Assembly (NCBI GenBank): GCA_032119595.1
Contig: JAUMBQ010000005.1
Coordinates: forward strand, 30,328 to 94,327
DNA from: Solirubrobacteraceae bacterium
Lineage (GTDB): Bacteria; Actinomycetota; Thermoleophilia; Solirubrobacterales; Solirubrobacteraceae
Direction: 5' to 3'
DNA: 64,000 nt
The notes under the pieces are model-generated. The model was not told the origin of the DNA and did no database searches. It worked only from the letters and a program-made list of their open reading frames with translations. How positions within the stretch are numbered: position 1 is the stretch's first letter; each line of letters opens with the position of its first letter. Positions 32,473 to 62,556 of the stretch are shown here, in pieces. The position numbers were made by a program, and so were the translations under genes.

Positions 32473-32496
32473 TCGCGTGCGGCCCACGGCGCCCCG

Positions 32497-32594
32497 GATC
32501 GCTGACCGAGGGTCGCTGGTCGAGGGTCGCTGGTCGCGGGTCGCTGGTCGCGGTTCCCGGGTCCCGGGTCCCGGGTCGCGGGTCGCTGGTCGCA
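32497..32594. repeat. 14-unit heptanucleotide tandem array (consensus GGTCGCK)
   Basis: GATCGCT GACCGAG GGTCGCT GGTCGAG GGTCGCT GGTCGCG GGTCGCT GGTCGCG GTTCCCG GGTCCCG GGTCCCG GGTCGCG GGTCGCT GGTCGCA, read directly from the sequence. Confidence 0.9.
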
Positions 32595-33237: not shown

Positions 33238-33330
33238 TGGTTGCGACCACCTAACGCTTCAACAGCCCGGCGCCAGCGGGCCCATCGGCTGGCGAGAGCG
33301 GCGCGATGGATGCGCTGACGGCGGACTGGA

Positions 33331-33465
33331 CTCGACGCCGGCTACGGCGCCAACGGGCCTATCGGCCAGTTCCCCGCTCCCAAACGCTGGGCTCCACGTT
33401 AGACCACAAAATAGGGTGTGCTTTGTACTAAAACGGTCAGTCAAAACTACGCCCTATTTTCCGGT
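33331..33465. repeat. 135-bp intergenic repeat unit A (degenerate AT-flanked hairpin at its 3' end)
   Basis: It shares the blocks CTCGACGCCGGCT, GGCGCC..CGGGCCTAT, TTAGACCACAAAATAGGGTG, CTTTGTAC and CCCTATTTTCCGGT with unit B. Confidence 0.8.
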
Positions 33466-33536
33466 ACGACACTTCCGCATCGCCCCGGGCGCGCTCGGCG
33501 AGTGCGGCGCGCCGAATGAGCTGGCGGCGGGCGAGG

Positions 33537-33671
33537 CTCGACGCCGGCTTCGGCGCCGGCGGGCCTATTCAGCAAGTCCGAGGACCCAGACTCCTCATCG
33601 CCTTTAGACCACAAAATAGGGTGGACTTTGTACGACCCCGGTTTCGGGAAAAGTCCACCCTATTTTCCGGT
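33537..33671. repeat. 135-bp intergenic repeat unit B (perfect 17-bp AT-flanked hairpin at 33613-33666)
   Basis: AAAATAGGGTGGACTTT / AAAGTCCACCCTATTTT with an inner CCCG-GTTT-CGGG. It lies exactly 206 bp downstream of unit A. Confidence 0.8.
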
Positions 33672-35452: not shown

Positions 35453-35665
35453 GGGTCCTCGAGGGTGGGTGGACGCTGTGGACAACCGCCGGGGCGCGCA
35501 AACGCACCGCAACGGCGCGTCGCACGGTAACCGGCCCCTCCCCGGAAAGACAGCAATTCCAATTCGCCGCAAGCGCCGTCACGAGTCTCGCCCCCAGAAC
35601 GCGACGACGCAGCCGAGCCCCAGCTGGGCGCCGACCAACCCAAGCACGTAGCCCCCGCAGCCAAC

Positions 35666-35784
35666 GGGCGGGGCGGGGGCGACCCAGCCGGGGCGAGTCC
35701 GCGGCGGACTGTCCGGTTCTGGCCGCTAGGCCATAACCGGACCGTCCGATCGTCGGCCCCGGCTGGGTCACCCCCGCCCCGCCC
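35666..35784. repeat. 119-bp GC-rich palindromic element, copy 1 (MITE/REP-like or structured RNA)
   Basis: 29-nt terminal inverted repeats GGGCGGGGCGGGGGCGACCCAGCCGGGGC / GCCCCGGCTGGGTCACCCCCGCCCCGCCC. The second copy is at 62291-62409. Confidence 0.85.
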
Positions 35785-35794
35785 CAACCAAGGA

Positions 35795-37615
<1,821 letters not shown>

Positions 37616-37678
37616 CGCGAACCCTCCAGGTTAGAGCGCGCGGGGGTAGGGCGCGGCGAGGGTTGGTCTGGGCCGTGA

Positions 37679-37785
37679 CGGGGCGGAGTGGTCCCCCTCT
37701 GGTCGCCGCTACCGTAGGCGGCGATTGCTGGCCGGGGTTCGGGCATTGGACGCTCGGCCTCCCGCCGGGGGACCACTCCGCCCCG
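37679..37785. repeat. 107-bp palindromic element with 19-bp perfect terminal inverted repeats
   Basis: CGGGGCGGAGTGGTCCCCC (37679-37697) / GGGGGACCACTCCGCCCCG (37767-37785), with an inner hairpin TCGCCGC-TACCGTAG-GCGGCGA. Confidence 0.8.
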
Positions 37786-37900
37786 CCCCTGCTGATCGCG
37801 TTCGCCGGCCCTACGGTGGGTCGCGTTCTGGACGTTGGTGTCAGTCGGCTGGGTCGACCCTGAGCTGCCTTCGGCGGGATTCGCGTTCTGGACCTTGGTG

Positions 37901-39574
37901 TTAGCTGGCTGGGGTGACGGTGACCGTGCCGTTGGAGAAGAGGCCGTCGGAGCCGAGGGTGATGGCGCCTTGGACGGGGATGGTGCCACCGGTGGCTGGC
38001 AGCGTGAACGGCGTGCGCGGGAACCCGATGGGCCGCGGGCCGGTAAGGGGGTTGTCGGTGATCACCGGTCCGCAGTTGCAGCCAGGCGTGGGCGGGTCGA
38101 CGCAGTGGAAGGTGTAGTCCACGACGGTGTCGTTGGTGAAATCAACAGCCACCGAGATCGTCTCCGGCCCGGTCTTGGTCACGGTGACCGACCACGTGCC
38201 GCTCGACACCGGGTTGATGATGGTGCAGATATCGATCTTCGACGCCGACGCCAGCGGCGACCATGTCACGGGCCCAGAGGCCGTCGACTTCGCGGGTGCG
38301 CTGTCCTTGACGGGAGCGGTCACCAACGTGCCAGACAACGATGCCGAGGCGTCGTGCGTGGCAAAGACGCCACGCTCGGTGTCCGCCAGCGTGACCGTGT
38401 ACTTCGCCTGGCACGCGCCGTTCTTCAGGTTCTTCTGCAGGCGATCGGCGACGACCTTGCGGATGTACTCGACGGCGGCGTACGTGAGGTACGTGGTCGC
38501 GATGTCGGTGTAGATCATGCCCTTGATGTTGCTGATCGACTTGTAGTCCCAAGGCGTTTCCCCCTTGGCGAAGTTCACGCCGGACTGCGGGCCAAAGATG
38601 CCACCCGCGTTCGGGTTGATGTGGCTCGACTGCTCCTTGATGGCCGCGGTGAAGTCGCCGCTGCCCTCGCCGAAGATGCCCTTGCTCGTGAAGCCGCTGC
38701 CGACGCGTCGGCCGCGCCAGGTGCTCGTCTTCTCGCCGGTGCCGCCGAACTGGAACTCGGTCTGCACGTCGACGTTGTCAATGGTCTTCCAAGCGCCGTC
38801 GTCGCCGATGGCCAGTTCGTAGCTCGAGTCGACCTTCGCGGAGATCGTCTGCGAGGCGCCGTCCGTGGTGATCGTGATCTTGGCCGAGGCGGAAAGCTTC
38901 CCGTCGACCTTGCCGTCTTTCGGGCAGGCGGTCGGAGCGTCGTTGAAACTCACTTCCAGCTTCACCTTGGCCGACTTCGCGTCGGTGACTTTGTCGGCTC
39001 CGAGTTCCTTCAGGCCCTTGCCGTCGGCGGAGAACTCGACGGTCGCGGAGGCCTGGTACCCCAGCTTGCCATCGGTGTTGACATCGGAGGCGTCGAGCTT
39101 GGCCGACCCCTGCGTGCCCTTCGCCGGGTCACCAAACGTCTGATTGAGATGAATGCCCTTGTCGTCGGCGAGGCGACGGGCCTGCATGCCGCTGCGCCAC
39201 TGGTTGAGGGTGCGATCGACGAGAGCCTTCGTCGCCTTCTTGCCGACCTTCTGCTCGATCTTGTCGAGCGCTTCCGGGTCGACCGTGAGTGCCTGATTGA
39301 TCTGGTCGGCGGCACTCGCCACCGACCCCTGCGAGGTCGTCGCCGGCGGCTCAAGCCGCGAGGCTTTGAGCTTCGGCGGCTTGGCGCATTTCGGCTTGCC
39401 CGTCTTGGTCTTGGCGACCTTGGCCTTCGTGCCCGAACCGATCAGCACCGGGACTGTCCCGGCTTTGCACTTCAGCTTCTTGGCAGCCTGCGCTGGGGTG
39501 GTGCCACCGGCAAACAGCGCCGCAGAGAGCAGGAAGATCCAAAAGGGGTGCCGGACCACCGAGCGAGAGCGCAT
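37901..39574 (-). CDS. secreted Lys-rich protein of unknown function
   Basis: The start is at MRSRSVVRHPFWIFLLSAALFAGGTTPAQA|AKK (ATG 39574). The mature N-terminus is KKLKCKAG...GKPKCAKPPKLK. No motif was recognised. Confidence 0.75.
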   Translation of the reverse strand: MRSRSVVRHPFWIFLLSAALFAGGTTPAQAAKKLKCKAGTVPVLIGSGTKAKVAKTKTGKPKCAKPPKLKASRLEPPATTSQGSVASAADQINQALTVDPEALDKIEQKVGKKATKALVDRTLNQWRSGMQARRLADDKGIHLNQTFGDPAKGTQGSAKLDASDVNTDGKLGYQASATVEFSADGKGLKELGADKVTDAKSAKVKLEVSFNDAPTACPKDGKVDGKLSASAKITITTDGASQTISAKVDSSYELAIGDDGAWKTIDNVDVQTEFQFGGTGEKTSTWRGRRVGSGFTSKGIFGEGSGDFTAAIKEQSSHINPNAGGIFGPQSGVNFAKGETPWDYKSISNIKGMIYTDIATTYLTYAAVEYIRKVVADRLQKNLKNGACQAKYTVTLADTERGVFATHDASASLSGTLVTAPVKDSAPAKSTASGPVTWSPLASASKIDICTIINPVSSGTWSVTVTKTGPETISVAVDFTNDTVVDYTFHCVDPPTPGCNCGPVITDNPLTGPRPIGFPRTPFTLPATGGTIPVQGAITLGSDGLFSNGTVTVTPAS

Positions 39575-39609
39575 GACGGCGATCTTGACGCGTTGGCAGC
39601 CGCGCCACA

Positions 39610-40434
39610 ATGCGGAGAAACCCGCGGATCGTGGTGCCGAGGCGCCAGCGCCGTCGTCCGGCAGCTCGACAACCGCGCCCTGAACCGGCGCTCCGGCTGG
39701 GCCGGCGCGGCTACCGTGGTCGGGTGCTCCGGCGTCTCCTGGTGCTGTCGGTCGTCGGGCTGCTCCTCGCGACTGGCGGCCGAATCATTCTGCTCATCGC
39801 GGCCAGCGGCACGCCGGACGCGGCTGACGCAGGCGAGGTCGCTGCCGTCCCTGCCGGGCAGCACCGAGCCGCGATCATCTTTGGCGCGGGGCTTCGCGAC
39901 GGCAAGCCTGGGCCGCTTCTCGTGGACCGGATCAAGGCCGGCGAGAAGCTGCTGGCCGAGCGGCGGGTGGATCTGCTCCTGCTCACCGGCGACAACTCCC
40001 GCGAGGAGTACGACGAGCCTGGGGCCATGTACGCGCGGGTCCTCTCCGACGGCGTGCCGGCCACGCAAGTTGCCGTCGACTACGGCGGACGACGCACGTG
40101 GGATTCGTGCGTGCGCGCCCGCCGAGTGTTCGGAGTCCGGCGCGCGATCATCGTCACCAACGACTTCCACCGCGCGCGAACCGTCGTGTCATGTGAGGCC
40201 GCCGGGATCGAAGTCGACGGCGCCGTCGGGACCTCCACAGGGCCGTACCGTCGCGTCGACCAGACGAAGTGGAAGGTCCGCGAGCTCGTCGCCTCGTGGC
40301 GAGGCGGCGTCGATGCGTGGGTCCGCCATCCGAAGGTGCCGGTCGGTGGCCAGCCGATCGACCCGTATGACGCCTGCGCGGTCTGGCGTTCCCTGAGTCC
40401 CGAGGACCGCGGCAGCAAGCCGGGCGACTGCTGA
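39610..40434 (+). CDS. SanA/YdcF (DUF218) family protein
   Basis: An N-terminal TM segment, then AIIFGAGLRDGKPGPLLVDRIKAGEKLL...LLLLTGDNSREEYDEPGAM...IIVTNDFHRARTV. Confidence 0.85.
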   Translation: MRRNPRIVVPRRQRRRPAARQPRPEPALRLGRRGYRGRVLRRLLVLSVVGLLLATGGRIILLIAASGTPDAADAGEVAAVPAGQHRAAIIFGAGLRDGKPGPLLVDRIKAGEKLLAERRVDLLLLTGDNSREEYDEPGAMYARVLSDGVPATQVAVDYGGRRTWDSCVRARRVFGVRRAIIVTNDFHRARTVVSCEAAGIEVDGAVGTSTGPYRRVDQTKWKVRELVASWRGGVDAWVRHPKVPVGGQPIDPYDACAVWRSLSPEDRGSKPGDC

Positions 40435-40452
40435 GCGACGTACGCTCTCCTC

Positions 40453-40788
40453 GTGTTCTCAAACCCGACGACTCCGACGTGGCCCGTGGCAGCCGGCGCC
40501 CTGCTGGCCGGCTTCGCCGTCGCCGACCTCACGGGAGTTCGCGCCCTCGGCGGCATCGTGCTCTTCCTGGGCGCACTCTGGTGCGGCCTGCACTGGAAGA
40601 CCCACCGCGGCCTACCAATCGCGCTCTCGCTGGTGTTCCTGCTCCTCGCGCTGTTCGCGCTCTCGCACGTGCTGGGAGACCAGATCGGGGCGTGGCCCTC
40701 GGTGTTCGTCGTCAGCGCAGTGATGGGCGCCGCTGCCTGGGCCGTCGCGGATCGCCGCGACGTGCCGCACGTCAACGACGTGGTGTAG
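40453..40788 (+). CDS. small integral membrane protein
   Basis: 111 aa with four hydrophobic helices. Confidence 0.55.
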   Translation: MFSNPTTPTWPVAAGALLAGFAVADLTGVRALGGIVLFLGALWCGLHWKTHRGLPIALSLVFLLLALFALSHVLGDQIGAWPSVFVVSAVMGAAAWAVADRRDVPHVNDVV

Positions 40789-43112: not shown

Positions 43113-43379
43113 ATGGCAAACATTGCATCCCAGAAGAAGCGCATTCTGCGCAGCGAACGCGAGCGGCTTGAGAACAAGCGCTACACGTCGTCGATCAAGA
43201 CGTACTTCCGTCGTCTCGAGGCGTCCGTCGCCTCGAACGATGACGCGAAGGCGACCGATGATCTCCGTCTTCTTCAGAAGACGATCGACAAGGCCGTCAA
43301 GCGCGGCGCGCTGCACAAGAACACCGGCGCTCGCAAGAAGTCCCGCGCCGTGCGGCTCCGCCGCGGCGCCAGCGCGTAA
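43113..43379 (+). CDS. rpsT: 30S ribosomal protein S20
   Basis: MANIASQKKRILRSERERLENKRYTSSIKT... Confidence 0.97.
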   Translation: MANIASQKKRILRSERERLENKRYTSSIKTYFRRLEASVASNDDAKATDDLRLLQKTIDKAVKRGALHKNTGARKKSRAVRLRRGASA

Positions 43380-43461: not shown

Positions 43462-43584
43462 CGCTGAGCGGCCAAAATGTGTTGCCCCGACAACAACAAA
43501 TGGCCGCTCACCCCCGCCCGCGCGCCCAGCCAGCGCTGAGCGGCAAAAATGTGTTGCCCCGACAACAACAAATGGCCGCTCACC
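43462..43584. repeat. two 51-bp hairpin repeats with a 72-bp period
   Basis: CGCTGAGCGGCCAAAATGTGTTGCCCCGACAACAACAAATGGCCGCTCACC at 43462-43512 and again at 43534-43584, differing at one position. The outer stem is GAGCGGCCA/TGGCCGCTC and the inner stem is TGTTG/CAACA. Confidence 0.85.
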
Positions 43585-43637
43585 GCCGCTCACGCCACCG
43601 CCCGCGCTTATGGCGCGACCGGGCCCGCGAATGCCGC

Positions 43638-48965: not shown

Positions 48966-49035
48966 GCGGACCTTGCGGCGGCGCAACGTGCTCGGTCAAC
49001 GCGGACCCTGCGGCGGCCCGGCGTACTCAGTCAGC
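48966..49035. repeat. 35-bp tandem duplication spanning the stop codon of the giant gene
   Basis: GCGGACCTTGCGGCGGCGCAACGTGCTCGGTCAAC (48966-49000) and GCGGACCCTGCGGCGGCCCGGCGTACTCAGTCAGC (49001-49035). Confidence 0.6.
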
Positions 49036-52000
49036 GGCGACGCAGCGCCAAACGCACCGTGCGCGAGGCGCCGTCGCCCACCACCCGGATCGCGACCGAC
49101 CGCTGACCGCACGACGACCGCACCGTGATCGTGGACGAACGTGCGCTGCCGCCCTTGGACCGAGCGCGCAGCCTGGCCAGTCGCTGGCGTCCCTGCCACA
49201 CCGTCGCCGCGACGTCCGTCGCGAGTCGATACCGAACTGGCCCACAGGCGCCGGCACGCCGCAGCTGGCCGATCGGCTTCAGAGCGATCACGACCGGCGC
49301 GATCGCTCGTACGCGAACGGCCACCGGCAAGCTGGTGCCGGTCCCGCCTGGCGGCCCGGCGAGCGCGCGCAGGACGTGTCGACCGACCGGCAGTCGCGAC
49401 AGGTCCAGCGACGATCCACGACCGACCACGATCATCCGTTTGCCGGTCGCCCAGCGGATGCCGCGACCAGGCAGCGCGTCGCCGGTCGGCGTCTTCGCCG
49501 TCGCGGTCAGCACCTGTCGCTCGCCCTTGCGAACGAGGTAGCTGGTCTCGGCGTCGTTGATCTCGACACCAGGCGGCCCGCCGCTGAAGGTGAGCTCGCC
49601 GCTCACCGCGGTTCGGGTGCTGAACCCGTCGGTCACCGTCACCCGCACGCGCCCACGACCGCCCGGCGCCGCTGGCAGCACGCCGCCGGAGATCACGTGA
49701 CGGTCACCGCCGCGGCCGCCCGCGAGGACCTTCCACGTTTCGCCACGGTCGCTCGACACCTCGATCGTCGCGAGCGGACGGTCGCCCTCTGGGTCGTCGG
49801 TGCGCCACCGCACCTCAAGGAGGCCGCGCCTGGTCACGCGAGTACCAGCAGCCGGTGCGGTCAACGCGACCGTCGGCGCTGCGCCAGCGTCAAGCTGAGC
49901 GAGGACGTGTCCACCATCTACGGCGACCGCCTCTATCCGCGTGACACCGTCGCCCGGAAGGACGACGGAAGCCGCAATCGCGATGCTGCCGTCCGGTGCC
50001 GCCTCAGCGTCCTCGGGCTGGGTGGCCACGCGAGCGCTGGCCACCAGCGATCCGTCGGCGCGTCGCGCGTCGATGCGCAGCGGCCCGTCCGGAGCGGCTG
50101 ATGCAGCCGCGGCGAGTTCAACCTCCGTCCGCTCGGTCGGCGTGACCGTGAAGCGCGTGAACTGCGTGTCGCGAATGCCGATGCTCACGGCGATCGCGGG
50201 CTTCAGCGGGCTCGCCGGTGCTTTGGCCTGAGTCGTTCGGGCTGGGTTTGCCCGGCGCCCGACGGGCCGGCTGCCTCGGTTGGCCGCGCTGAACGGAGCG
50301 CCGCGATCCGGCCTGCTCCCCGACTCGCCCGGCGTCGCGAGGCGCCCCAGCCGCAACGGCACGCCCAAGAACGACCGCCGGCTTGAGATGCCGACCGGGT
50401 CGTCGGCAAGCGGTGCGAGCGCGTTGCGGAGCAGTGCGTAGGCGTATGGGCACGACGGGAGGATCCCGAACCGGTAGGTCGACAGCACCGTCGGCTTGCA
50501 CGGCAACGCCACACCGTTCGTGTACCCGCGATTGACCGCATCCGGGGTGCGCTCGGTGTATTCCTGGCTACCGCGCACCATCGCGTTCCAGTACCGGGTG
50601 CTCCACCAGGTCCCGTTCCCCGGGGCAAGCGCCGCGCCGAGCGTCCCACGTGGCACGCCGCCACACGCCGAGGTGACGTCTCGAAGCTCCGCGCCGCCAC
50701 AGCCGGCCGCGAGCGGCGGCCGGTTCTCCACTCGCCGGTAGCCCGCAGGATGACCGTCGCCAGGAGAACGCTCGATGGCCTCCCCGCCGACGTAGCCGAA
50801 ATGATCGGGTTCCCAGTTCGCTGCCCAGACCGCACCACCTCGACCCGACGCCGGGCGTAGCCCCTGCATCTGGGCCAGCGCACGACCGATCGACGGCGCG
50901 CTCGCCGGCTCCCCTGCACGAAGACTCACGACGCTCTGCATGTCGGGCGACGGCGCTGAGTTCGACGAGGGAAGCCGGTCGCTGCGCTCGATGAAGGCTG
51001 CGGCGCGCTGCCCGCCCCCAGCAGGCGACCCCACCCCCGGCACGCATCGGCCCGCTTGATAGGCGCAGCGGTCCGCGATGGCGATCGCAGGACTGTCAGC
51101 CGGTCGACCGGCCGGCGCGTCGCCGCGGTTCAAACGACGGTCGACGAGATTTCGGGCGTCGGCGAGTACCGAGGCGGCGTCAAGCTGGTTGCTCGGCGCG
51201 AGGTACGCGAACGTTCGCGGTGCGTCGAGATAGAACGGGACCGGGGAGAAACTGGACAGACGCGACTGCAACGTTTGCGAGGCGCGGTACTCCAGCTGCC
51301 CACGGTCTGGCGGCAGGACCGACACCACTGAGGCCCGCACCGGCTCCATTTGCGCCACGGCTGGATAGCGAATCGTGATCCGGTCGTTGTCGCGAGCGCA
51401 GTTCTCACATTGCGCAGGCACGCCTGGCGTCTCAGGAACCGAGTCGCGCATCGACGGAGAGGTGTGTGAGGCGAGGATGAACTCGTACGGCCGGGTGAGC
51501 TTGATCGAGAACGCGTACGGCACAGCGCGGTCGCGCATCTCTGGACTCACGCCGACGGCGTTGGTAATGGGAACCCGGTCCGGCTGGTAGAGCAGCCGGG
51601 TGATCGGGACTTCGCTTCGCGAGTTGTTCTCGTCGGCTTGGCGCTCTCCCTCGGCTCGCTCGTAGCGCCCGGACAGGTAGACGCCCGGCGACGGCGCGCT
51701 GGTGCCGCGCCCGCCGTGGGCGACCACCCATACGAGCACGATGCCCATGCCCTTGGAGAGCACGACCCCGTCGTAGAGCGCGTCGCGGGCTGGCGGCCCA
51801 GGCCAGGCCGTGGAGGTCTGCCGCTGAACGCCCTGCGTGATCTCCATGCCGACGACGTCGTAGTCCGGGCGGACTGGCTTGGGCGGGAGCACCTGGATCG
51901 AGACGGGCACGTCGAGCGACAGACCGAGCCCGTTCGAAACGCGGTACAGGACGGTGTCGACCCCCGGCGTGTCGCGCACCTTCCGGGTGACGCTGATCGT

Positions 52001-54043
52001 CGCGCGCTGGTCGATGAGGGAGCTGAATGGGTTCAAAAGGTTGGGGCATGTGCCGAACGTCGTGCGCACGCAGACGGTGCCGTCCGACGTTCCGAGGTCG
52101 ACCTGGAAGGTGATCCGGACGACAGACCCGGGCTCGGGGTTCGCTGGGCTGAGGATGGGGCCGATGAGGAGCGTCGGCGGTGGGATGCGGAACGACTGAA
52201 CCCGCTCAACCTCCGGAACGGGGCGGTACGTCTCCGTGAGGAGCTTGGGCACCTGCGTCACGAGGAGCGAGGACGGCATCAGCCAAGACGATCCAGGCAC
52301 CGTGACCGGAGCCAGCGGTGGCAGGCTCGGTGCCGGCGTCGGGGTCGGCGTGGGGGTCGGCAGCGGCGTGGGGACCGTGGTCGGGGCCGGCGTCGGCGTC
52401 GGTGACCCAGGCGTGGGCGTCGGCGTCGGCGTGAGCGTGGGCGTCGGCGTGGGCGTCGGCGCCGTGACGACGTACGTCGCCTGCGCGGAATTCTCGCCTG
52501 CGAGGGAGTCGAACACGCGCACGCGAACGGTGCGGCTCTGCGCCACAGGCACCGCCACCGAGGTCGTCGGCGCAGCGCCGATCACGTCTTCGGTCGAGTT
52601 GCCGTCGGTGTCGAAGGCGTACGTGAGGACTCCCGGCCCGTCTGGATCAGCGCTGCCGGAGGCGTCGAGCGTGATCATCGCCGGGGCTGCCGCGGTCGGC
52701 GGGGTGAGCTGGAGGGCCGCCGTCGGTGGCGCATTGAGGCTCACCCGGACCGCGCTTGCGGCCGCGTCGACCAGGTCATCACCTGGAGTGTTGCCCGTGA
52801 AGACCACCATGCCGCCGTTCTCGAAGACGGCCGCTGGCTGCTCACGGTGGCCGGACACGGTCTCGGCCAACCCTGGCTTGGGTCCACCGGGGTTCCACCG
52901 CGTATCGGCAGTTCCGTCGGGCTTCAGGCGTGCCGTCACCGACTGCGTCCCATCGCCATCCGTCACGCCCGACACGACGATGGACCCGTCGCCCTGCCAG
53001 GCGCCGTCGATCGCTCGCACGTTCTCGCTCCACTGCGCGGCCCGGACGGTGCCGACCGGCGCGCCGTCGATCGTGAGTCGCTGGGAGAGCAGCACTCGCG
53101 CGGGCGGCGTCGGTGAGAGACGCTGGCCGATCGCCATGAGCCCGGACGGCACGGCCACGAACCGCGACAGGTGGACCCGCTCAGAAAACGAAAACGCTCC
53201 GCCCGTCCCGAAGTCGCCATCGAGCGCACCCGAGGAGAGCCGCCGTTCGATGACGGCGGCGTTCGGCGAAGGATCGCCGCTCGCCAGGAGTTCGTGGCGA
53301 GCAAGCAGGAACTTCCCTGCGGTCTCGGCAATCAGGTCGACCACGCGATCCACGCCGTTAACGCCAGCCCCTCCGGGCGTCGGGTCAAATGCGAGGAACC
53401 CCGCGCCTCCCAGCGAGCTGCCCAGCGCCCCGGCCGCGTCGAGGTCGGCGAGGAAGAGGGTGTGCGTCGTCCCGCCTGTCGTTCGCTCTCCGGCGACCGC
53501 CGCCGCCCCTCCACCGCGGACGGCGATCGCCGTTGCCACCGAGCCCGAACCAGCGCCGAGGTTCCGCACGCCGTTCACGCCGTAGCTCAGGTCCAGCCCC
53601 GAGCCATCGTGGGCGATCCCGACGACGACGGCTTCGCCGCTCGCACTCGCGCCAGCTACCAGCAGCCGCTGCACCGTCGCCGCGGCGCGGCGCCCCGTCG
53701 GCGACCGGTCCGGCAGCGTGATGACGCTGGCGGCGAGGTCGAGGATGCCGTCTCCGCCACCGTAGGCCGGGTCAAGCGCCCCGGCCGCGGTCAGCTTCAC
53801 GATCCGCGTCATGTTCGTGAGCGAGGCCTGGCGACGCAGGACGACGTAGTTCCCGCCCGCGGGTGCGGCCGCCGCATCGACGGGGTACAGATCAGCGCCA
53901 GCAGCCGCGAGCGTCCGGACTCCCGCTACCCCGAACGCAGCATCGCGAGCGCCTGCGGGCGCAGCATGTGCCGTCCCCGCCAGCGTCTGGGAGCAAACAA
54001 CCACTGCGAGCAGCAGCCGCAAGCCGAGGGGAAGACCACGCAT
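49031..54043 (-). CDS. giant secreted protein: delta-60-like repeats, PKD domain, PT linker, large unassigned central region, Ig-like C-terminus
   Basis: Signal peptide MRGLPLGLRLLLAVVVCSQTLAGTAHA|AP (ATG 54043; the ORF is open to 54070). Delta-60-like repeats: GALDPAYGGGDG, LDLSYGVNG, GALDGDFGTGG. PKD motif: ITLDASGSADPDGPGVLTYAFDTDGN. Linker: TPTPTPTLTPTPTPTPGSPTPTP. Confidence 0.8.
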   Translation of the reverse strand: MRGLPLGLRLLLAVVVCSQTLAGTAHAAPAGARDAAFGVAGVRTLAAAGADLYPVDAAAAPAGGNYVVLRRQASLTNMTRIVKLTAAGALDPAYGGGDGILDLAASVITLPDRSPTGRRAAATVQRLLVAGASASGEAVVVGIAHDGSGLDLSYGVNGVRNLGAGSGSVATAIAVRGGGAAAVAGERTTGGTTHTLFLADLDAAGALGSSLGGAGFLAFDPTPGGAGVNGVDRVVDLIAETAGKFLLARHELLASGDPSPNAAVIERRLSSGALDGDFGTGGAFSFSERVHLSRFVAVPSGLMAIGQRLSPTPPARVLLSQRLTIDGAPVGTVRAAQWSENVRAIDGAWQGDGSIVVSGVTDGDGTQSVTARLKPDGTADTRWNPGGPKPGLAETVSGHREQPAAVFENGGMVVFTGNTPGDDLVDAAASAVRVSLNAPPTAALQLTPPTAAAPAMITLDASGSADPDGPGVLTYAFDTDGNSTEDVIGAAPTTSVAVPVAQSRTVRVRVFDSLAGENSAQATYVVTAPTPTPTPTLTPTPTPTPGSPTPTPAPTTVPTPLPTPTPTPTPAPSLPPLAPVTVPGSSWLMPSSLLVTQVPKLLTETYRPVPEVERVQSFRIPPPTLLIGPILSPANPEPGSVVRITFQVDLGTSDGTVCVRTTFGTCPNLLNPFSSLIDQRATISVTRKVRDTPGVDTVLYRVSNGLGLSLDVPVSIQVLPPKPVRPDYDVVGMEITQGVQRQTSTAWPGPPARDALYDGVVLSKGMGIVLVWVVAHGGRGTSAPSPGVYLSGRYERAEGERQADENNSRSEVPITRLLYQPDRVPITNAVGVSPEMRDRAVPYAFSIKLTRPYEFILASHTSPSMRDSVPETPGVPAQCENCARDNDRITIRYPAVAQMEPVRASVVSVLPPDRGQLEYRASQTLQSRLSSFSPVPFYLDAPRTFAYLAPSNQLDAASVLADARNLVDRRLNRGDAPAGRPADSPAIAIADRCAYQAGRCVPGVGSPAGGGQRAAAFIERSDRLPSSNSAPSPDMQSVVSLRAGEPASAPSIGRALAQMQGLRPASGRGGAVWAANWEPDHFGYVGGEAIERSPGDGHPAGYRRVENRPPLAAGCGGAELRDVTSACGGVPRGTLGAALAPGNGTWWSTRYWNAMVRGSQEYTERTPDAVNRGYTNGVALPCKPTVLSTYRFGILPSCPYAYALLRNALAPLADDPVGISSRRSFLGVPLRLGRLATPGESGSRPDRGAPFSAANRGSRPVGRRANPARTTQAKAPASPLKPAIAVSIGIRDTQFTRFTVTPTERTEVELAAAASAAPDGPLRIDARRADGSLVASARVATQPEDAEAAPDGSIAIAASVVLPGDGVTRIEAVAVDGGHVLAQLDAGAAPTVALTAPAAGTRVTRRGLLEVRWRTDDPEGDRPLATIEVSSDRGETWKVLAGGRGGDRHVISGGVLPAAPGGRGRVRVTVTDGFSTRTAVSGELTFSGGPPGVEINDAETSYLVRKGERQVLTATAKTPTGDALPGRGIRWATGKRMIVVGRGSSLDLSRLPVGRHVLRALAGPPGGTGTSLPVAVRVRAIAPVVIALKPIGQLRRAGACGPVRYRLATDVAATVWQGRQRLARLRARSKGGSARSSTITVRSSCGQRSVAIRVVGDGASRTVRLALRRR

Positions 54044-54202
54044 CGGGTCGAGTCTCGCAGGCGTGCCCACCGAACTCCAACGCGCCAGAAGAATTCATCA
54101 TTTCATCGCGACGGCTGATTCCCAACGCCAGCCCGCCTGCGGACGAACTCTTGGCGAACGCCCCAAAACGCTCCGAACGGCTGAACGCGGGTGGTCTTCG
54201 GT

Positions 54203-55705
54203 TCAGTGCGGCCGGTCGAGCCGCGCGTCTTCGAGGTCGAGGTCGCGCTCGATGCGATGCAGCACGTCGGTGTGTAGGAATCCGATGTCGCGAAGCCGGA
54301 TCAGCTCGCGCCGCTCGGCATTGAGCGCTTCGCGGCGCAGGCGCTGGTAGGCCTGGGAGCGGTCCTCGACGGCGCCATCGTCGTCATCGTCGAAGCGTGC
54401 TTTGAACCGCCGGATCCTGAACTCGTAGGCGGCCTTCATCCGGGCCGCTGAGTCCTCACCGACCCAGCCCTCCGACCCGAGTTCATCGAGCCGCGCGATC
54501 GCTGCCTGCGCGGCTTTGAGCCGCGCCTTCGCCTCGCGCGCTTCGTTCGTCGCACCGTCATCCAAGCCGACCAGCCGGATCATCAGCGGCAGGAGCAGGC
54601 CCTGGCCGACGATCGTCACCAGGATCACGAAGTACACGATCAGCACGATCAGGTCCCGCGCTGGGAAGGCGTCGCCGGACTCCGTGAGCGCGGGGATCGT
54701 GAGCGCCGCCGCGAGCGACACGGCGCCTCGCATGCCGGTGAACGCCACGAGGAACGTCTCTCCCCACGGCGCCAGCGGGCTCTTGATCTCGCGGGCCTGG
54801 TTCCAGATCATCCGGCGCAGCCCGGCCGTCGCGAACACGTAGAGGAACCGCACCACGATCACGGCGACCGACACGATCACGCCGTAGAACAGCAGCGTTC
54901 CCGCGGAGTAGTCGTCGGAGACGGCGTCGATGATCGACGGCAGCTGCGTGCCGAGCAGGATGAACAGCGCCGCGTTGAGCACGAAGATGAGGAGTTCCCA
55001 GACCGCCGTGGACTGCAGCCGGGTGATCGGCGTGACCAGGATCGGCGCTCGCCAGCCGAGCCAGATACCGGACGTGACGGCCGCAAGCACGCCACTCGCG
55101 CCGAGCGCATCGGCCGGGAGGAACGCCAGGAACGGCGTGAGGAGCGACACCGTGATCTCGGTGAGCGGGTCGTCGAGCGGTTTGCGGACCTGCACGATCA
55201 CCCAACTGATCGCGATCCCTATCGCGACGCCACCGGCAGAGCTGAGCACGAACTCGCCGACGGCAACCGGCGCGGAGAACGACCCCGCGACCACTGCCGC
55301 GATCGCGAACTTGAGCAGGATCAGCGCGGTCGCGTCGTTGATGAGCGACTCGCCCTCGACGACGGTCACGAACCGCCGGGGTGCGCCGAGCCGCCCAGCG
55401 ATCGCGGTCGCCGCAACCGGATCGGTCGGTGAGAGGACCGCGCCGAGCGTGAACGCAGCCGCCCAGCTCATCCCGTCGATAAACGTGTGGGCGACCACGC
55501 CGACGAGCGCCATGGTCGCGAGCACGAGGCCGATCGAGAGCGACGCCACTGGTCGGAGATTCGCTTTGAGATCCCGCAACGAGGAGAAGAACGCTGCCCC
55601 GTAGAGCAGCGGCGGCAAGAAGATCACGAGCACGAGCTCGGGCTCGAGCGTGAAGTTCGGGATCCCCGGCGCAAAGCCGAGCACCAGGCCCCCGAGGACC
55701 AGCAC
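54203..55705 (-). CDS. Na+/H+ antiporter (CPA1/NhaP type)
   Basis: LVLGGLVLGFAPGIPNFTLEPELVLVIFLPPLLY, with a C-terminal cytoplasmic helical domain. The first canonical start (GTG 55705) lies inside what should be TM2, so the true start is probably upstream (see findings). Confidence 0.85.
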   Translation of the reverse strand: MLVLGGLVLGFAPGIPNFTLEPELVLVIFLPPLLYGAAFFSSLRDLKANLRPVASLSIGLVLATMALVGVVAHTFIDGMSWAAAFTLGAVLSPTDPVAATAIAGRLGAPRRFVTVVEGESLINDATALILLKFAIAAVVAGSFSAPVAVGEFVLSSAGGVAIGIAISWVIVQVRKPLDDPLTEITVSLLTPFLAFLPADALGASGVLAAVTSGIWLGWRAPILVTPITRLQSTAVWELLIFVLNAALFILLGTQLPSIIDAVSDDYSAGTLLFYGVIVSVAVIVVRFLYVFATAGLRRMIWNQAREIKSPLAPWGETFLVAFTGMRGAVSLAAALTIPALTESGDAFPARDLIVLIVYFVILVTIVGQGLLLPLMIRLVGLDDGATNEAREAKARLKAAQAAIARLDELGSEGWVGEDSAARMKAAYEFRIRRFKARFDDDDDGAVEDRSQAYQRLRREALNAERRELIRLRDIGFLHTDVLHRIERDLDLEDARLDRPH

Positions 55706-60006: not shown

Positions 60007-60039
60007 ATCGACGGGCGACAGACCACCCGACCCGCTCAG

Positions 60040-60156
60040 ACCCCCAGGGACGCGGAAACGAAGCATGCCCGCACTCCACGACTCGCGGTCACGAGGGCCC
60101 CGCGAAGCGGTACGAAGGCCCCCGCAAGCGAAGGCCTTCGTACCCGAGCGTGGAGC
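60040..60156. repeat. left copy of a ~120-bp direct repeat (modules A+B, ending in a degenerate tRNA-Ala 3' fragment)
   Basis: Module B (60112-60156) matches 62445-62489 at 44 of 45 positions. Module A (60040-60110) aligns with 62165-62245. Confidence 0.8.
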
Positions 60157-60163
60157 CGAACGA

Positions 60164-62053
60164 CTAGGGGGTGATAGCCGCCGCGTAGAGCTGGCTGATC
60201 TTCGCGGCCGTGAGCCCAGTCGAGAACACGGCGACATCGTCGATCCCACCCTTGAAGCGCAGCGCACCACCGTAGGCCCCGATCTGGCCCCCGACGGCGG
60301 TCGTGCCGGCGCTCAGCGCATACGTGCCGACGGCCACGCCGTTGCGGTACACGACCAGCTGGCTGCCGCTTGCGACGAGTGCCCAGTGCACCCAAGTGCC
60401 AACGTTGCTGGCTGTGGCGATCGTGGCGCTCGTCGCCGTGCCACCCAGACGATCCGCGGTGAACGAGACCGACGTCTGGCCGACTTTGATCGACGCGCCA
60501 CCCTCGCCACCAAACACGTAGCCCGACGGAGCACCCGAATCGACCTTCGTCCACGCCGACACCGTGAAGTCGGAGCCCGTGTAGACGGTCGGGACGGTCA
60601 CATGACGCGTTCCGCCGAAGTACTGGCTCGTGTCGCTGGTGCCGAGGCCTGGGCCCGTCAGACCGTAGGTGCCGGCGGCCGGCGTGGCACCGTCGCTCGC
60701 GAGGCCCGCGTTCGCCGGTGTGCCTGCGCTGTCGTGGATGCGCCCGGACAGCGTTGGCTGATCGAGCAGGCGAACGGCGCGGGGCTCACCGAGACGCCAG
60801 AACGCCGCAAGGCCGGTCGTGGCGAGCACGCTGTTTGCGTAGCGCGCCTTCGGGACGATCCGCACGCCGTAGCTGTTATCGGAGCCCTTCCAGAGCACTT
60901 CGACCTTGAGGCCGGAGGTCGGCTCGGTGTAGGTCGCACCTGCCGGCCAGGCACCTGGCGCTCCGCCCGGCACACTGGGGCAGGAGCCGCTCGGGCGCTG
61001 CACGATCGCAGTGCCCAAAGTCTGGTCGATCGAGGCAGTGTTGACCAACGTGATCACGACGCCGTCGCGGCAGCCGGGCGTCTCGCCGGCGACCGGTGCG
61101 CGCACCTCGACCGTGAGCTCACGCGAGGTTGACAAGGGCACGCTCAGCACCTTCTTGCCACTCGTCAACGTGGAGTCGATCGGTAGGACCGCCGACACCA
61201 GCGCGCCAGTCGTGCCCGGAACGCACACGACCTGTGACGCACCGATCCATTCGAGACCGAGCTGGCCCGCGGCCAACGGCGCTAGCCAGGGGGAGGAATG
61301 GCTGGCCATGATGTCGTAGCCGGCCGTGAGCGTGGAGTCGCTCGGCTGGATATAGAGGTCTGCGAGGCCCAGACCGTGGAGGGTCTCATGGGCGAGGGTG
61401 GCCTGGTCGGCGTTGACCGGGGCTCGGTAGCCACTTTGGATCGTGGCTCCGCCGGGCGCCGTGAACGGTCGGGTCGTCGCGTTCGCGCGGTACGGCGTCG
61501 GCAGGATCGCCCCAACGAAGTCGACGCTCGAGTAGATGCCGTTGCCGAACTGCGCGCTGGCGAGCGCCATCGCGTCATCGAGCAACTCGTATGGCTTGGT
61601 GTTGTAGTACGAGGACTCATGCGGCATCCGCAGCCACGTGGGCGAGGCGTTGGCGAAGTGCGTTGACACGGAGAACTGACCGCGGCTCAGCGACCCGAAC
61701 GGACCGGCGTCCAGCAGCGTTGGGACCGCGGCGGTGAGATCGGCCTGTGCACCGTTGCCAGGGCCGGTGCTTCCACCTGTCGGACTCGGGAAGTCCACCG
61801 GAATGAGCAGCGTCGACCTCGAGCCCGTGGCGGCCAAGGGATAAGCCGGCACTGAGCCGTAGGCGTTGCCGCGGCCAGGCGTTGAGCCCGTCTGGCCGAA
61901 GCGCGGCAGCGCGCACGGGCCACTGGTGAGCGCCTGGGCCTGCGGTGCAACGACCGCAGCGCCGACGGCGATCACACCGACGGTCGAAACAACGCGCAAG
62001 ACGCGTTTACGGATTGGAATCACCGCAGAGCGGCGCACGTGGAGGTGGGACAT
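60164..62053 (-). CDS. secreted M6-like (immune inhibitor A-type) zinc metalloprotease fused to a LamG/concanavalin-like domain
   Basis: The start is at MSHLHVRRSAVIPIRKRVLRVVSTVGVIAVGAAVVAPQAQA|LT (ATG 62053). HETLHGLGLADLY matches the M6 pattern HExxHxLGLxDxY. The C-terminal FTVSAWTKVD...WVHWALVASGSQLVVYRNG...GGIDDVAVF is LamG-like. Confidence 0.8.
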   Translation of the reverse strand: MSHLHVRRSAVIPIRKRVLRVVSTVGVIAVGAAVVAPQAQALTSGPCALPRFGQTGSTPGRGNAYGSVPAYPLAATGSRSTLLIPVDFPSPTGGSTGPGNGAQADLTAAVPTLLDAGPFGSLSRGQFSVSTHFANASPTWLRMPHESSYYNTKPYELLDDAMALASAQFGNGIYSSVDFVGAILPTPYRANATTRPFTAPGGATIQSGYRAPVNADQATLAHETLHGLGLADLYIQPSDSTLTAGYDIMASHSSPWLAPLAAGQLGLEWIGASQVVCVPGTTGALVSAVLPIDSTLTSGKKVLSVPLSTSRELTVEVRAPVAGETPGCRDGVVITLVNTASIDQTLGTAIVQRPSGSCPSVPGGAPGAWPAGATYTEPTSGLKVEVLWKGSDNSYGVRIVPKARYANSVLATTGLAAFWRLGEPRAVRLLDQPTLSGRIHDSAGTPANAGLASDGATPAAGTYGLTGPGLGTSDTSQYFGGTRHVTVPTVYTGSDFTVSAWTKVDSGAPSGYVFGGEGGASIKVGQTSVSFTADRLGGTATSATIATASNVGTWVHWALVASGSQLVVYRNGVAVGTYALSAGTTAVGGQIGAYGGALRFKGGIDDVAVFSTGLTAAKISQLYAAAITP

Positions 62054-62164
62054 GATTCGAACATACTCTACGGCCCTAGAGGCGTCAATCTGTCCCGGAG
62101 ACCCACCGAATAGCCCAGGCCTTCGAGTACCGGAGAAGCGAAGCAGAGTCCTCAAACCCGCCAA

Positions 62165-62245
62165 CCTGCCCAGACCCCCCAGAACGGGGCAAGCGAAGCA
62201 GTGCCCGCAAGCACCACGACCCGCGGTCACGAAGCCGCCGCGCAG
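62165..62245. repeat. right copy of repeat module A
   Basis: CAGACCCCCCAGAACGGGGCAAGCGAAGCAGTGCCCGCAAGCACCACGACCCGCGGTCACGAAGCCGCCGCGCAGCGG aligns with 60037-60110. Confidence 0.7.
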
Positions 62246-62290
62246 CGGGGGCCGCAACCCACCAACGCCGCCATGGCTACCAGCGAGCCA

Positions 62291-62409
62291 GGGCGGGCCG
62301 GGGGTGACCCCGCCGGGGCGAGTCCGCGGCCGATCGTACGGTTCTGCCCGCCAGGGCATAACCGGATGATCGGATCGTCGGCCCCGGCGGGGTCACCCCC
62401 GGCCCGCCC
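62291..62409. repeat. 119-bp GC-rich palindromic element, copy 2
   Basis: Perfect 29-nt arms GGGCGGGCCGGGGGTGACCCCGCCGGGGC / GCCCCGGCGGGGTCACCCCCGGCCCGCCC. It has the same length, orientation and central motif (GAGTCCGCGGC...CATAACCGGA...GATCGTCG) as copy 1. Confidence 0.85.
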
Positions 62410-62444
62410 GAGACCCGCCCAACCCACCAAACGGCGCCGAAACG

Positions 62445-62489
62445 ACGAAGGCCCCCGCAAGCGAAGGCCTTCGTACCCGAGAGTGGAGC
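62445..62489. repeat. right copy of repeat module B (hairpin ACGAAGGCC-N12-GGCCTTCGT; likely tRNA-Ala terminator)
   Basis: 44/45 identical to 60112-60156. Its last 6 nt are the tRNA-Ala 3' end. Confidence 0.8.
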
Positions 62490-62556
62490 TGAGGGGACTC
62501 GAACCCCTGACTTCCGCCATGCCATGGCGGCGCTCTACCAGCTGAGCTACAGCCCC
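62484..62556 (-). tRNA. tRNA-Ala (anticodon GGC)
   Basis: 73 nt. Acceptor GGGGCTG/CAGCTCC with G3:U70. D arm GCTC-AGCTGGTA-GAGC. Anticodon arm CCGCC-ATGGCAT-GGCGG. T arm AGGGG-TTCGAGT-CCCCT. CCA is not encoded. Confidence 0.95.

What the first reader, a model, noticed from the sequence alone, without database searches (positions are those of the whole stretch)
35666..35784. 119-bp GC-rich palindromic element family with paired (compensatory) substitutions between its two copies
Two copies (35666-35784 and 62291-62409) have the same length and orientation and share 29-nt terminal inverted repeats. Where the copies differ in the arms, both partners change together. CCAGCC/GGCTGG becomes CCCGCC/GGCGGG, and GGGGCGGGGG/CCCCCGCCCC becomes GGGCCGGGGG/CCCCCGGCCC. 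The inner hairpin TGGCC-GCTA-GGCCA becomes TGCCC-GCCA-GGGCA. The only arm mismatch (copy 1) is C/A on the plus strand, which is a G.U wobble in a minus-strand transcript. Both copies lie just downstream of minus-strand genes: about 10 bp after the lepA stop and 75 bp after tRNA-Ala. Preserved pairing despite sequence drift points to a selected hairpin. That could be a structured RNA or terminator, a REP/MITE-type element recognised as a hairpin, or a protein-binding cruciform. No transposase is present in the window.
Basis: seen in the sequence. Interest (0 to 1): 0.7.

Follow-up and report, generated by a model that had tools for sequence, protein, structure and literature searches.

The report
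Lineage-specific 119-bp palindromic intergenic repeat
Two copies of a 119-bp GC-rich DNA hairpin lie between genes of a soil actinobacterium (Solirubrobacterales); their arms have changed in matched pairs, as happens in small mobile palindromic repeats such as REPINs and MITEs, so this is a new family of a known kind, not a new mechanism.

Summary
Copies at 35666-35784 and 62291-62409 are both 119 nt, in the same orientation and 87% identical, with 29-nt terminal inverted repeats. Each folds into one long hairpin (about -114 kcal/mol, z -10 to -13). Of the 16 differences, 10 form five base pairs changed on both sides that stay Watson-Crick. In 200,000 simulations of independent mutation, five or more such pairs arose once.

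The element is an insertion. Three relatives keep lepA followed by the same secreted-protein gene, and none has the hairpin. A paralogous stretch in the window (60019-60159) matches both flanks of copy 2 but lacks 196 nt containing it. Both copies are non-coding. There is no Rfam match, no U-tract, and no transposase, integrase or RAYT in the window.

Wobble pairs do not favour one strand. Three of the five paired changes are GC-to-CG flips, and one set of changes is clustered. This fits a DNA-level hairpin better than a minus-strand RNA.

No third copy turned up anywhere, so copy number, target-site rule and mobilising enzyme remain unknown. Best reading: a lineage-restricted REPIN/MITE-like palindromic repeat. 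Interest is moderate to low.

The parts
35666..35784 (.). Copy 1 of the 119-nt palindromic element. It lies in the spacer between the lepA stop (35795) and the start (35452) of a 487-aa secreted-protein gene, both on the minus strand.
   Evidence: the gene start is confirmed by a 100% match to the 487-aa protein P0121
62291..62409 (.). Copy 2, same orientation and 87% identical. It lies between tRNA-Ala (62484-62556, minus strand) and the inferred start (62053) of a Laminin_G_3 secreted-protein gene.
35666..35694 (.). Left 29-nt arm of copy 1. It pairs with 35756-35784; 28 of 29 positions are complementary, with a C.A mismatch at position 15.
35756..35784 (.). Right 29-nt arm of copy 1.
62291..62319 (.). 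Left 29-nt arm of copy 2. It pairs with 62381-62409; 29 of 29 positions are complementary.
62381..62409 (.). Right 29-nt arm of copy 2.
35695..35755 (.). 61-nt core of copy 1: an imperfect inner hairpin. Its asymmetries are identical in both copies. These are a 6-nt against 2-nt internal loop (GAGTCC / CG), a bulged A84 and a C54.T69 mismatch. The 4-nt apical loop differs (GCTA in copy 1, GCCA in copy 2).
62320..62380 (.). 61-nt core of copy 2. It carries three of the five compensated pairs (41/82, 44/79, 57/66) and the clustered changes at positions 44-45 and 77-79.
62249..62444 (.). 196-nt stretch present at locus 2 but absent from the paralogous region A. It consists of 42 nt, the hairpin and 35 nt.
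60019..60159 (.). Region A, a paralogous 'empty site'. An X module (78% identical to 62153-62248) is followed directly by a 48-nt hairpin plus tRNA-3'-end repeat (96% identical to 62445-62492).
   Evidence: (D18)
62255..62272 (.). Left flanking direct repeat of copy 2, CAACCCACCAACGCCGCC. Its partner is 62420-62438, CAACCCACCAAACGGCGCC.
   Evidence: read
62420..62438 (.). Right flanking direct repeat of copy 2.
   Evidence: read
35636..35647 (.). A similar C/A-rich motif left of copy 1, CAACCCAAGCAC. Its partner, CAACCAAGGAC, is at 35785-35795. CAAC also abuts both hairpin ends (35662-35665 and 35785-35788).
   Evidence: read; the left flanks of the two copies align weakly over about 60 nt (5 of 500 shuffles score as high)

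Best explanation
The two sequences belong to a lineage-restricted family of small, non-coding, palindromic interspersed repeats. The family is of the REPIN / MITE / ERIC / Correia kind and sits in a Solirubrobacterales (Thermoleophilia, Actinomycetota) chromosome.

Shown:
- Each copy is an insertion into an intergenic spacer.
- Each forms one very long, near-perfect hairpin.
- The two arms of each copy have stayed complementary while the copies diverged by 13%.

Inferred:
- The hairpin itself, as folded single-stranded DNA or a cruciform, is what the propagation or maintenance process sees. One route is that a trans-acting enzyme recognises folded ssDNA, as RAYT does for REPINs. Only source elements with intact hairpins then spread. 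The other route is that mismatches are erased inside each copy by intrastrand template switching during replication.
- Any effect on neighbouring genes, such as a barrier at the lepA mRNA 3' end or insulation of the downstream secreted-protein genes, would be secondary.
For: - Two copies lie at unrelated loci with sharp homology boundaries at the hairpin ends.
- The copies have no coding periodicity.
- The window belongs to Solirubrobacterales by LepA relatives.
- Orthologous empty sites exist. The order lepA -> secreted-protein orthologue is conserved in L014 (43% identity), L074 (50%) and L076 (28%, E 1e-33). Their spacers are 122, 208 and 202 nt, against 343 nt in the window. None contains the element.
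- A paralogous empty site exists for copy 2: region A lacks 196 nt.
- Paired substitutions are significant.
- Three of the five are GC<->CG flips, and positions 44-45 and 77-79 change as a cluster. This fits DNA-level correction or hairpin-dependent copying, not stepwise RNA compensation.
- Wobbles are not strand-specific.
- There is no Rfam family and no U-tract.
- Compensatory changes across the hairpin are reported as common in REPINs (PMC3116915). Template switching is documented to create and maintain hairpins (PMC8794818).
- Other palindromes of about 120 nt occur in the same order of bacteria: window 37672-37792, L076 1071-1193 and L012 1662-1782.
Against: - Only two copies are known.
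- Pattern scans of 185,579 representative genomes and of the JGI metagenomes gave only chance hits. The same was true of viral contigs, plasmids and phages. A search for spurious ORFs translated from the element also found nothing. An abundant, spreading family is therefore not demonstrated.
- There is no consistent target-site duplication: CAAC/CAAC at copy 1, nothing at copy 2.
- No transposase, RAYT or integrase is in the window, and the rest of the genome could not be read.
- The arms are not themselves small REP hairpins and carry no terminal GTAG or CGTC tag.
- Weak similarity extends beyond the hairpin on one side. The unit that moved may therefore be larger, or may have spread by segmental duplication.
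Confidence: 0.55

Rival explanations
1. The element is a functional structured RNA. It could be a cis-acting element in the 3' UTR of lepA or in the 5' leader of the downstream secreted-protein genes (an mRNA stabiliser, an RNase III site, or a U-tract-less terminator). It could also be an independent small RNA. Selection on RNA pairing would explain the covariation.
For: - The fold is very stable and the covariation is significant.
- Both copies have the same orientation relative to flanking minus-strand genes.
- Both lie at similar distances upstream of a secreted-protein start codon (213 and 237 nt) and just after lepA or tRNA-Ala.
- REP, ERIC and Correia elements are known to act this way once transcribed (established knowledge; PMC3733652).
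Against: - It is absent from the orthologous lepA spacers of three relatives.
- There is no Rfam family; only sub-threshold miRNA-precursor-like noise.
- There is no U-tract and no promoter-like site at the element.
- Wobble evidence is split between strands, and 3 of 5 compensations are GC<->CG flips.
- tRNA-Ala already has a separate hairpin at 62445-62477.
Confidence: 0.15
2. The element is not mobile by itself. The two hairpins would be the best-preserved parts of a larger mosaic intergenic segment (X module, linker, hairpin). That segment spread by segmental duplication or gene conversion, and its arms were homogenised by template switching.
For: - The left flanks of the two copies align weakly over about 60 nt (5 of 500 shuffles).
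- They share an 11-mer, CCCCCAGAACG, at 35591-35601 and 62176-62186.
- An X module and a 48-nt hairpin repeat are duplicated around the Laminin_G_3 gene.
- Similar C/A-rich direct repeats flank both hairpins.
- The window's spacers are full of other local repeats.
Against: - Homology drops from 87% to near background exactly at the hairpin ends on the right side, and within a few nucleotides on the left.
- Region A has the X module without the hairpin, so the modules are separable.
- The two loci are 26.6 kb apart in unrelated gene contexts.
Confidence: 0.15
3. The element is a recombination or protein-binding site recognised as a folded hairpin or cruciform. Analogies are an integron attC site or a phage ssDNA attP. 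It would mark junctions where variable genes are inserted next to conserved anchors (the lepA 3' end and tRNA-Ala).
For: - Both copies sit at the boundary between a conserved anchor gene and a fast-evolving or rare secreted-protein gene.
- The asymmetries are identical in both copies: the internal loop, the bulged A84 and the C54.T69 mismatch.
- The size is within the attC range.
- A 48-nt repeat that includes 9 nt of the tRNA-Ala 3' end brackets the Laminin_G_3 gene.
Against: - The flanks do not form the inverted RYYYAAC / GTTRRRY core sites of attC (read).
- There is no integrase or recombinase in the window.
- The secreted-protein gene after lepA is ancestral in relatives that lack the hairpin, so the hairpin did not arrive with the gene.
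Confidence: 0.08

Closest known systems
REPINs (REP doublets forming hairpins, mobilised by RAYT transposases; Bertels & Rainey 2011, PMC3116915)
   Same: - A non-coding, extragenic unit of about 100-120 nt that folds into one long hairpin.
- Conserved ends with a less conserved spacer.
- Compensatory changes across the hairpin are described there as common.
- No terminal duplication is required.
   Different: - The arms here are 29-nt G/C-rich inverted repeats. They are not small REP stem-loops and carry no GTAG or CGTC tag.
- No RAYT is seen.
- REP families were catalogued in Proteobacteria, Cyanobacteria, Chloroflexi, PVC and other phyla, but not in Actinobacteria (PMC3733652).
- The copy number here is unknown.
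Bacterial MITEs and long palindromic repeats (Correia/NEMIS of Neisseria, ERIC/IRU of enterobacteria, RUP/BOX of pneumococcus)
   Same: - Size of 100-150 bp with terminal inverted repeats of about 26-30 bp.
- Intergenic location next to gene ends, and presence/absence polymorphism between relatives.
- They can be co-transcribed as hairpins.
   Different: - These comparisons rest on my own knowledge of those families.
- Correia elements have a TA duplication and others have defined duplications. Here there is CAAC at one copy and none at the other.
- No parental IS with matching ends is known.
- The strict arm-to-arm co-variation is not a feature expected from dsDNA recognition by a DDE transposase.
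Integron attC sites (for example the roughly 120-bp Vibrio cholerae repeats)
   Same: An imperfect palindrome of similar length, recognised elsewhere as folded ssDNA. Structure is conserved more than sequence, and extrahelical bases are conserved.
   Different: There are no inverted R''/R' core sites, no integrase, no cassette array, and the element lies upstream of its neighbouring ORF, not downstream. Membership is not met.
Quasipalindrome correction / template-switch mutation (PMC8794818, PMC8604942)
   Same: It explains one-step paired changes, GC<->CG flips and clustered changes in both arms of an inverted repeat.
   Different: It is a mutational process, not an element family. It does not explain how the sequence came to be at two loci.

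Membership tests
MITE (miniature inverted-repeat transposable element) | Terminal inverted repeats | tested here: met
   The arms are 29 nt, 28/29 and 29/29 complementary.
MITE (miniature inverted-repeat transposable element) | Short, with no coding capacity | tested here: met
   The element is 119 nt and shows no GC3 periodicity across it.
MITE (miniature inverted-repeat transposable element) | Target-site duplication of fixed length | tested here: inconclusive
   Copy 1 has CAAC on both sides. Copy 2 has CCA / GAG, with no duplication. Longer C/A-rich direct repeats lie 0-21 nt away from the ends.
MITE (miniature inverted-repeat transposable element) | Presence/absence polymorphism at homologous sites | tested here: met
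   The element is absent from the orthologous lepA spacers of L014, L074 and L076, and from paralogous region A.
MITE (miniature inverted-repeat transposable element) | A related autonomous IS with the same ends, or many dispersed copies | not testable with these tools
   The source contig (344 kb, NCBI) could not be fetched beyond the window. There is none in the window.
REPIN | Two inverted REP units that together form a long hairpin | tested here: inconclusive
   The long hairpin is present. The arms are not convincing stand-alone REP stem-loops and have no terminal GTAG/CGTC tag (read; PMC3733652).
REPIN | Compensatory changes across the hairpin | tested here: met
   There are five compensated pairs; 1 of 200,000 simulations reaches that number.
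REPIN | A cognate single-copy RAYT (Y1 HUH transposase) flanked by the repeats | not testable with these tools
   There is none among the window ORFs. The rest of the genome is unavailable.
Intrinsic (Rho-independent) terminator | GC-rich hairpin followed by a U-tract | tested here: not met
   No terminator-like sites were found around either copy on either strand.
Integron attC site | Inverted core sites RYYYAAC ... GTTRRRY, and an association with cassettes or IntI | tested here: not met
   The flanks of copy 1 are direct (CAAC/CAAC), not inverted. Copy 2 has neither core site. There is no integrase.
Any Rfam RNA family | A covariance-model score at or above the gathering threshold | tested here: not met
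   Only tRNA-Ala passes in the window. The permissive search gives miRNA-precursor models at 37 bits against a threshold of 168.

The most novel reading that the evidence does not exclude
Solirubrobacterales genomes may carry a class of hairpin elements of about 120 nt that are specified by structure, not by sequence. The candidates are the 119-nt family, window 37672-37792, its positional counterpart L076 1071-1193, and L012 1662-1782. An as yet unidentified enzyme (HUH or tyrosine type) would recognise them as folded single-stranded DNA and move or recombine them. This would be an actinobacterial counterpart of REPIN/RAYT or attC/IntI systems, which have not been described in this phylum.
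Probability: 0.15. Interest if true: 0.7.

Novelty: new member of a known kind. Interest (0 to 1): 0.35.

Why it matters
If the family proves to be numerous in the source genome, it would extend hairpin-dependent intergenic repeats (REPIN-like elements) to the Thermoleophilia, a deep and poorly studied actinobacterial class. I found no paper in the library linking such repeats to that class.

It would also give a clean test case for a general question. Are the 'compensatory' substitutions seen in long hairpins produced by selection on folding, or by replication template switching? The two have different signatures. Template switching predicts GC<->CG flips and contiguous tracts. Selection on RNA predicts strand-specific wobble intermediates.

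On its own, with two copies and no enzyme, it is an ordinary small repeat with no shown effect on the neighbouring genes.

Tried and rejected
**Searches for further copies (all negative)**
- A two-block pattern scan of the representative genomes gave 13 hits, and a similar scan of JGI metagenomes gave 21. All had the wrong spacing or were chance matches by nhmmer.
- A 15-mer scan of viral contigs gave 35 chance hits.
- blastn against plasmids and phages gave only fragments of 35-45 nt.
- A covariance model of the two copies returned only generic hairpins. It was run on the window and on 15 of the fetched loci, mostly Solirubrobacterales relatives.
- A profile of the element's open reading frames (+0 and -0) searched against 1.84 billion representative proteins returned only low-complexity partial hits in long proteins.

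**Fetching more of the source genome**
- The window's secreted protein matches P0121 on a 344-kb NCBI contig. Only a 1,977-nt Logan contig (L073) is readable, and it stops 47 nt short of the element.
- The contig with the closest LepA (99%, P0001) has no DNA on file.

**Readings rejected**
- attC: no inverted core sites.
- Intrinsic terminator: no U-tract.
- Rfam family: none.
- Homology between the two downstream secreted proteins: none.
- Assembly artefact: two diverged copies with matched changes cannot be a fold-back artefact.
- The hairpin arriving together with the downstream gene at lepA: the gene is ancestral in relatives that lack the hairpin.

**Inconclusive**
- Sequence relatedness of the 119-nt family to the other palindromes of about 120 nt. 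Mononucleotide-shuffle tests gave 6/300, 40/300 and 76/300.

Full report
**What is in the sequence**

Window 35666-35784 and 62291-62409 are each 119 nt and in the same orientation. They align without gaps at 87% identity, with 16 differences.

Each copy has 29-nt terminal inverted repeats, 28/29 complementary in copy 1 and 29/29 in copy 2. The 61-nt core is itself an imperfect hairpin, so the whole unit folds into one long stem-loop. As RNA the fold energy is -107 to -114.5 kcal/mol on either strand, with z-scores of -10 to -13 against dinucleotide shuffles. As DNA it is -65 to -68 kcal/mol.

The window has 69% G+C. blastn, nhmmer and a covariance model run with filters off find no third copy in the 64 kb.

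**The paired substitutions**

I counted the differences on the common structure of 52 pairs.
- Five pairs differ on both sides and remain Watson-Crick: 8/112 GC->CG, 21/99 AT->CG, 41/82 GC->CG, 44/79 CG->TA and 57/66 GC->CG.
- A sixth pair, 45/78, goes from a T.C mismatch to C-G.
- Three changes are one-sided: position 15 (C.A -> T-A), position 77 (G-C -> G.T) and position 48 (C-G -> A.G).
- One change is in the apical loop (position 62).

In 200,000 simulations of 16 independent substitutions, five or more compensated pairs arose once. Sliding the pairing register by one to three columns gives none. The tool's own shuffle control is weak here because there are only two sequences (11 of 500 shuffles reach the observed value).

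The asymmetric features of the core are identical in both copies: a 6-nt against 2-nt internal loop, the bulged A84 and the C54.T69 mismatch.

**Which strand, and RNA or DNA**

That is correct but not decisive.
- Copy 2 has G46.T77 on the plus strand, which is a C.A mismatch on the minus strand.
- Both copies use G36.T88 and G39.T85 on the plus strand in the RNA fold.
- The fold energies are equal for copy 1 and favour the plus strand for copy 2.
- Three of the five compensated pairs are GC<->CG flips, which have no wobble intermediate.
- Positions 44-45 and 77-79 change as one cluster.

These features fit a process acting on DNA better than stepwise compensation in a strand-specific RNA. Such a process could be copying from hairpin-competent source elements, or intrastrand template switching. 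Template switching is documented to create and maintain hairpins in single events (PMC8794818). With two copies this is an indication, not a test.

**Context**

LepA places the window in the Solirubrobacterales (Solirubrobacteraceae/Baekduia-like, class Thermoleophilia). The closest LepA proteins are 99%, 97%, 93% and 92% identical.

Copy 1 lies 10 nt after the lepA stop codon. It is 213 nt upstream of the start of a 487-aa secreted protein whose gene model is confirmed by an identical database protein.

Copy 2 lies 74 nt after tRNA-Ala, beyond a separate 33-nt hairpin. It is 237 nt upstream of the inferred start of a secreted Laminin_G_3 protein.

Neither copy shows coding periodicity. No sigma-70-like promoter or U-tract terminator was found at either copy. 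No Rfam family matches. Pfam scans of about 56 candidate ORFs covering the window's GC3-supported coding regions found no transposase, integrase or Y1/RAYT protein. The two downstream proteins are unrelated.

**Evidence that the element is an insertion**

The order lepA -> secreted protein is conserved in three relatives.
- In L014/L015 (97% LepA), the next gene is a 43%-identical orthologue.
- In L074, it is a 50%-identical homologue directly after lepA.
- In L076 (93% LepA), it is an orthologue at 28% identity, E 1e-33.

Their spacers are 122, 208 and 202 nt, against 343 nt in the window. None contains the element by blastn, nhmmer or the covariance model. In L016 (92% LepA) the spacer is 22 nt.

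For copy 2 there is a paralogous empty site inside the window. Region A (60019-60159) has an X module that is 78% identical to 62153-62248. That module is followed directly by a 48-nt repeat that is 96% identical to 62445-62492. The locus of copy 2 has 196 extra nucleotides between these two blocks: 42 nt, the hairpin and 35 nt.

**Limits of the element**

On the right the homology ends at the hairpin. On the left the two flanks align weakly over about 60 nt (5 of 500 shuffles score as high). They also share CCCCCAGAACG further out.

Both hairpins are bracketed by similar C/A-rich direct repeats. For copy 2 these are CAACCCACCAACGCCGCC at 62255-62272 and CAACCCACCAAACGGCGCC at 62420-62438. For copy 1 they are CAACCCAAGCAC at 35636-35647 and CAACCAAGGAC at 35785-35795.

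Copy 1 has CAAC abutting both ends, while copy 2 has no duplication. I cannot tell whether these motifs are a preferred target, part of a larger unit, or a separate module of a mosaic spacer.

**Search for more members**

None was found.
- Two-block patterns that both window copies match exactly returned only chance hits in the representative genomes and in JGI metagenomes.
- The same was true of viral contigs, plasmids and phages.
- A profile of the element's two open frames found no spurious ORFs among 1.84 billion representative proteins.

The source genome is evidently not in the scanned DNA collections. Its 344-kb contig could not be read beyond the window. Copy number, subfamily structure and any mobilising gene therefore remain unknown, and the family may be confined to this species.

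**Related structures**

Other palindromes of about 120 nt exist in this order of bacteria.
- Window 37672-37792 lies 56 nt upstream of lepA and has 26-nt arms.
- L076 1071-1193 lies 66 nt upstream of lepA in a relative. It is weakly similar to the window one (7 of 1,000 shuffles), and by eye its arms differ from it by matched changes.
- L012 1662-1782 has perfect 25-nt arms. A CTAG at each end supplies the stop codons of two convergent genes.

They are not demonstrably related in sequence to the 119-nt family. None was seen in 36 kb of Baekduia DNA around lepA.

**Interpretation**

The best-supported reading is a lineage-restricted, non-autonomous palindromic interspersed repeat of the REPIN/MITE/ERIC/Correia kind (confidence about 0.55). 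Its hairpin is maintained at the DNA level. Bertels and Rainey state that compensatory changes across REPIN hairpins are common (PMC3116915), so the striking feature of this finding has a direct precedent.

Membership of the REPIN family proper is not established. The arms are not REP stem-loops with a GTAG or CGTC tag, and no RAYT is seen. A survey of REP families did not list Actinobacteria (PMC3733652).

The rivals are:
- a functional RNA hairpin (0.15);
- the conserved part of a larger duplicated mosaic segment (0.15);
- a hairpin-type recombination or binding site (0.08).

**Verdict**

The novelty class is a new member of a known kind, and the interest is moderate to low (0.35). The main open point is that only two copies could be examined.

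Noticed in passing
window 60019-60159 and 62153-62248 plus 62445-62492: A module of about 145 nt is present on both sides of the Laminin_G_3 gene (60164-62053, minus strand). It consists of an X block at 78% identity and a 48-nt block at 96% identity. The 48-nt block is a 12-bp-stem hairpin plus 9 nt matching the tRNA-Ala 3' end. It looks like att-type direct repeats or a segmental duplication bracketing a 2.3-kb gene that has only one distant homologue in the protein database (43%, Patulibacter).
   Followed up: partly
window 37672-37792; L076 1071-1193: A second palindrome of about 121 nt (26-nt arms, 88% complementary) lies 56 nt upstream of the lepA start. A relative with 93% LepA identity has a 123-nt palindrome 66 nt upstream of lepA. 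Its loop-proximal segments are similar, but its arms differ by matched changes (GGTCCCCC/GGGGGACC against GGTCGGGC/GCCCGACC). L014 and L016 lack it.
   Followed up: partly
L012 1662-1782 (Solirubrobacterales MAG, OY970074.1): A 121-nt palindrome with perfect 25-nt arms sits between convergent ORFs. CTAG at each end provides the stop codon of both ORFs. This resembles a MITE with a CTAG target duplication.
   Followed up: partly
window 62101-62210: Two tandem 55-nt units (71% identical) lie between copy 2 and the Laminin_G_3 start. They contain small hairpins with AAGCGAAGCA-type loops, and the same loop motif recurs in the 48-nt hairpin repeat.
   Followed up: no
window 33291-33385 / 33497-33591 and 33403-33465 / 33608-33671: The 0.8-kb spacer downstream of the 487-aa gene holds a unit repeated at a 206-nt period. 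It includes unusually AT-rich hairpins (ACCACAAAATAGGGTG ... CACCCTATTTTCCGGT). The Logan contig L073 breaks inside one of them.
   Followed up: no
window 43462-43523 / 43534-43595: Two tandem 62-nt units (94% identical, 72-nt period) each form a hairpin (GAGCGGCCA...TGGCCGCTC). They lie in the spacer between an ORF ending near 43378 and holA; that ORF may be rpsT, judged only from gene order in Baekduia loci and not tested.
   Followed up: no
window 37821-37863 / 37881-37923 and 32495-32593: A 43-nt repeat with 60-nt spacing lies upstream of lepA. A separate array with a 14-nt period (GGGTCGCTGGTCGC-like) lies after the Peptidase_S11 gene.
   Followed up: no
L078 11373-11672 and 12689-12988 (Baekduia alba CP114013.1): A tandem duplication of about 1.3 kb includes the 3' end of lepA (300 nt at 99% identity) and leaves a LepA_C fragment ORF. 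Like the window, it shows that the lepA 3' flank is structurally plastic in this order.
   Followed up: partly
window 37901-40788 and 49031-55705, compared with L077/L078: Compared with Baekduia (leuS-comEA-comEC-holA-rpsT-murJ-lepA, tightly packed), the window has extra genes. These lie between murJ and lepA (a 111-aa ORF, a DUF218 protein and a 569-aa unknown) and between leuS and comEA (a Na/H exchanger and a 1679-aa protein).
   Followed up: no
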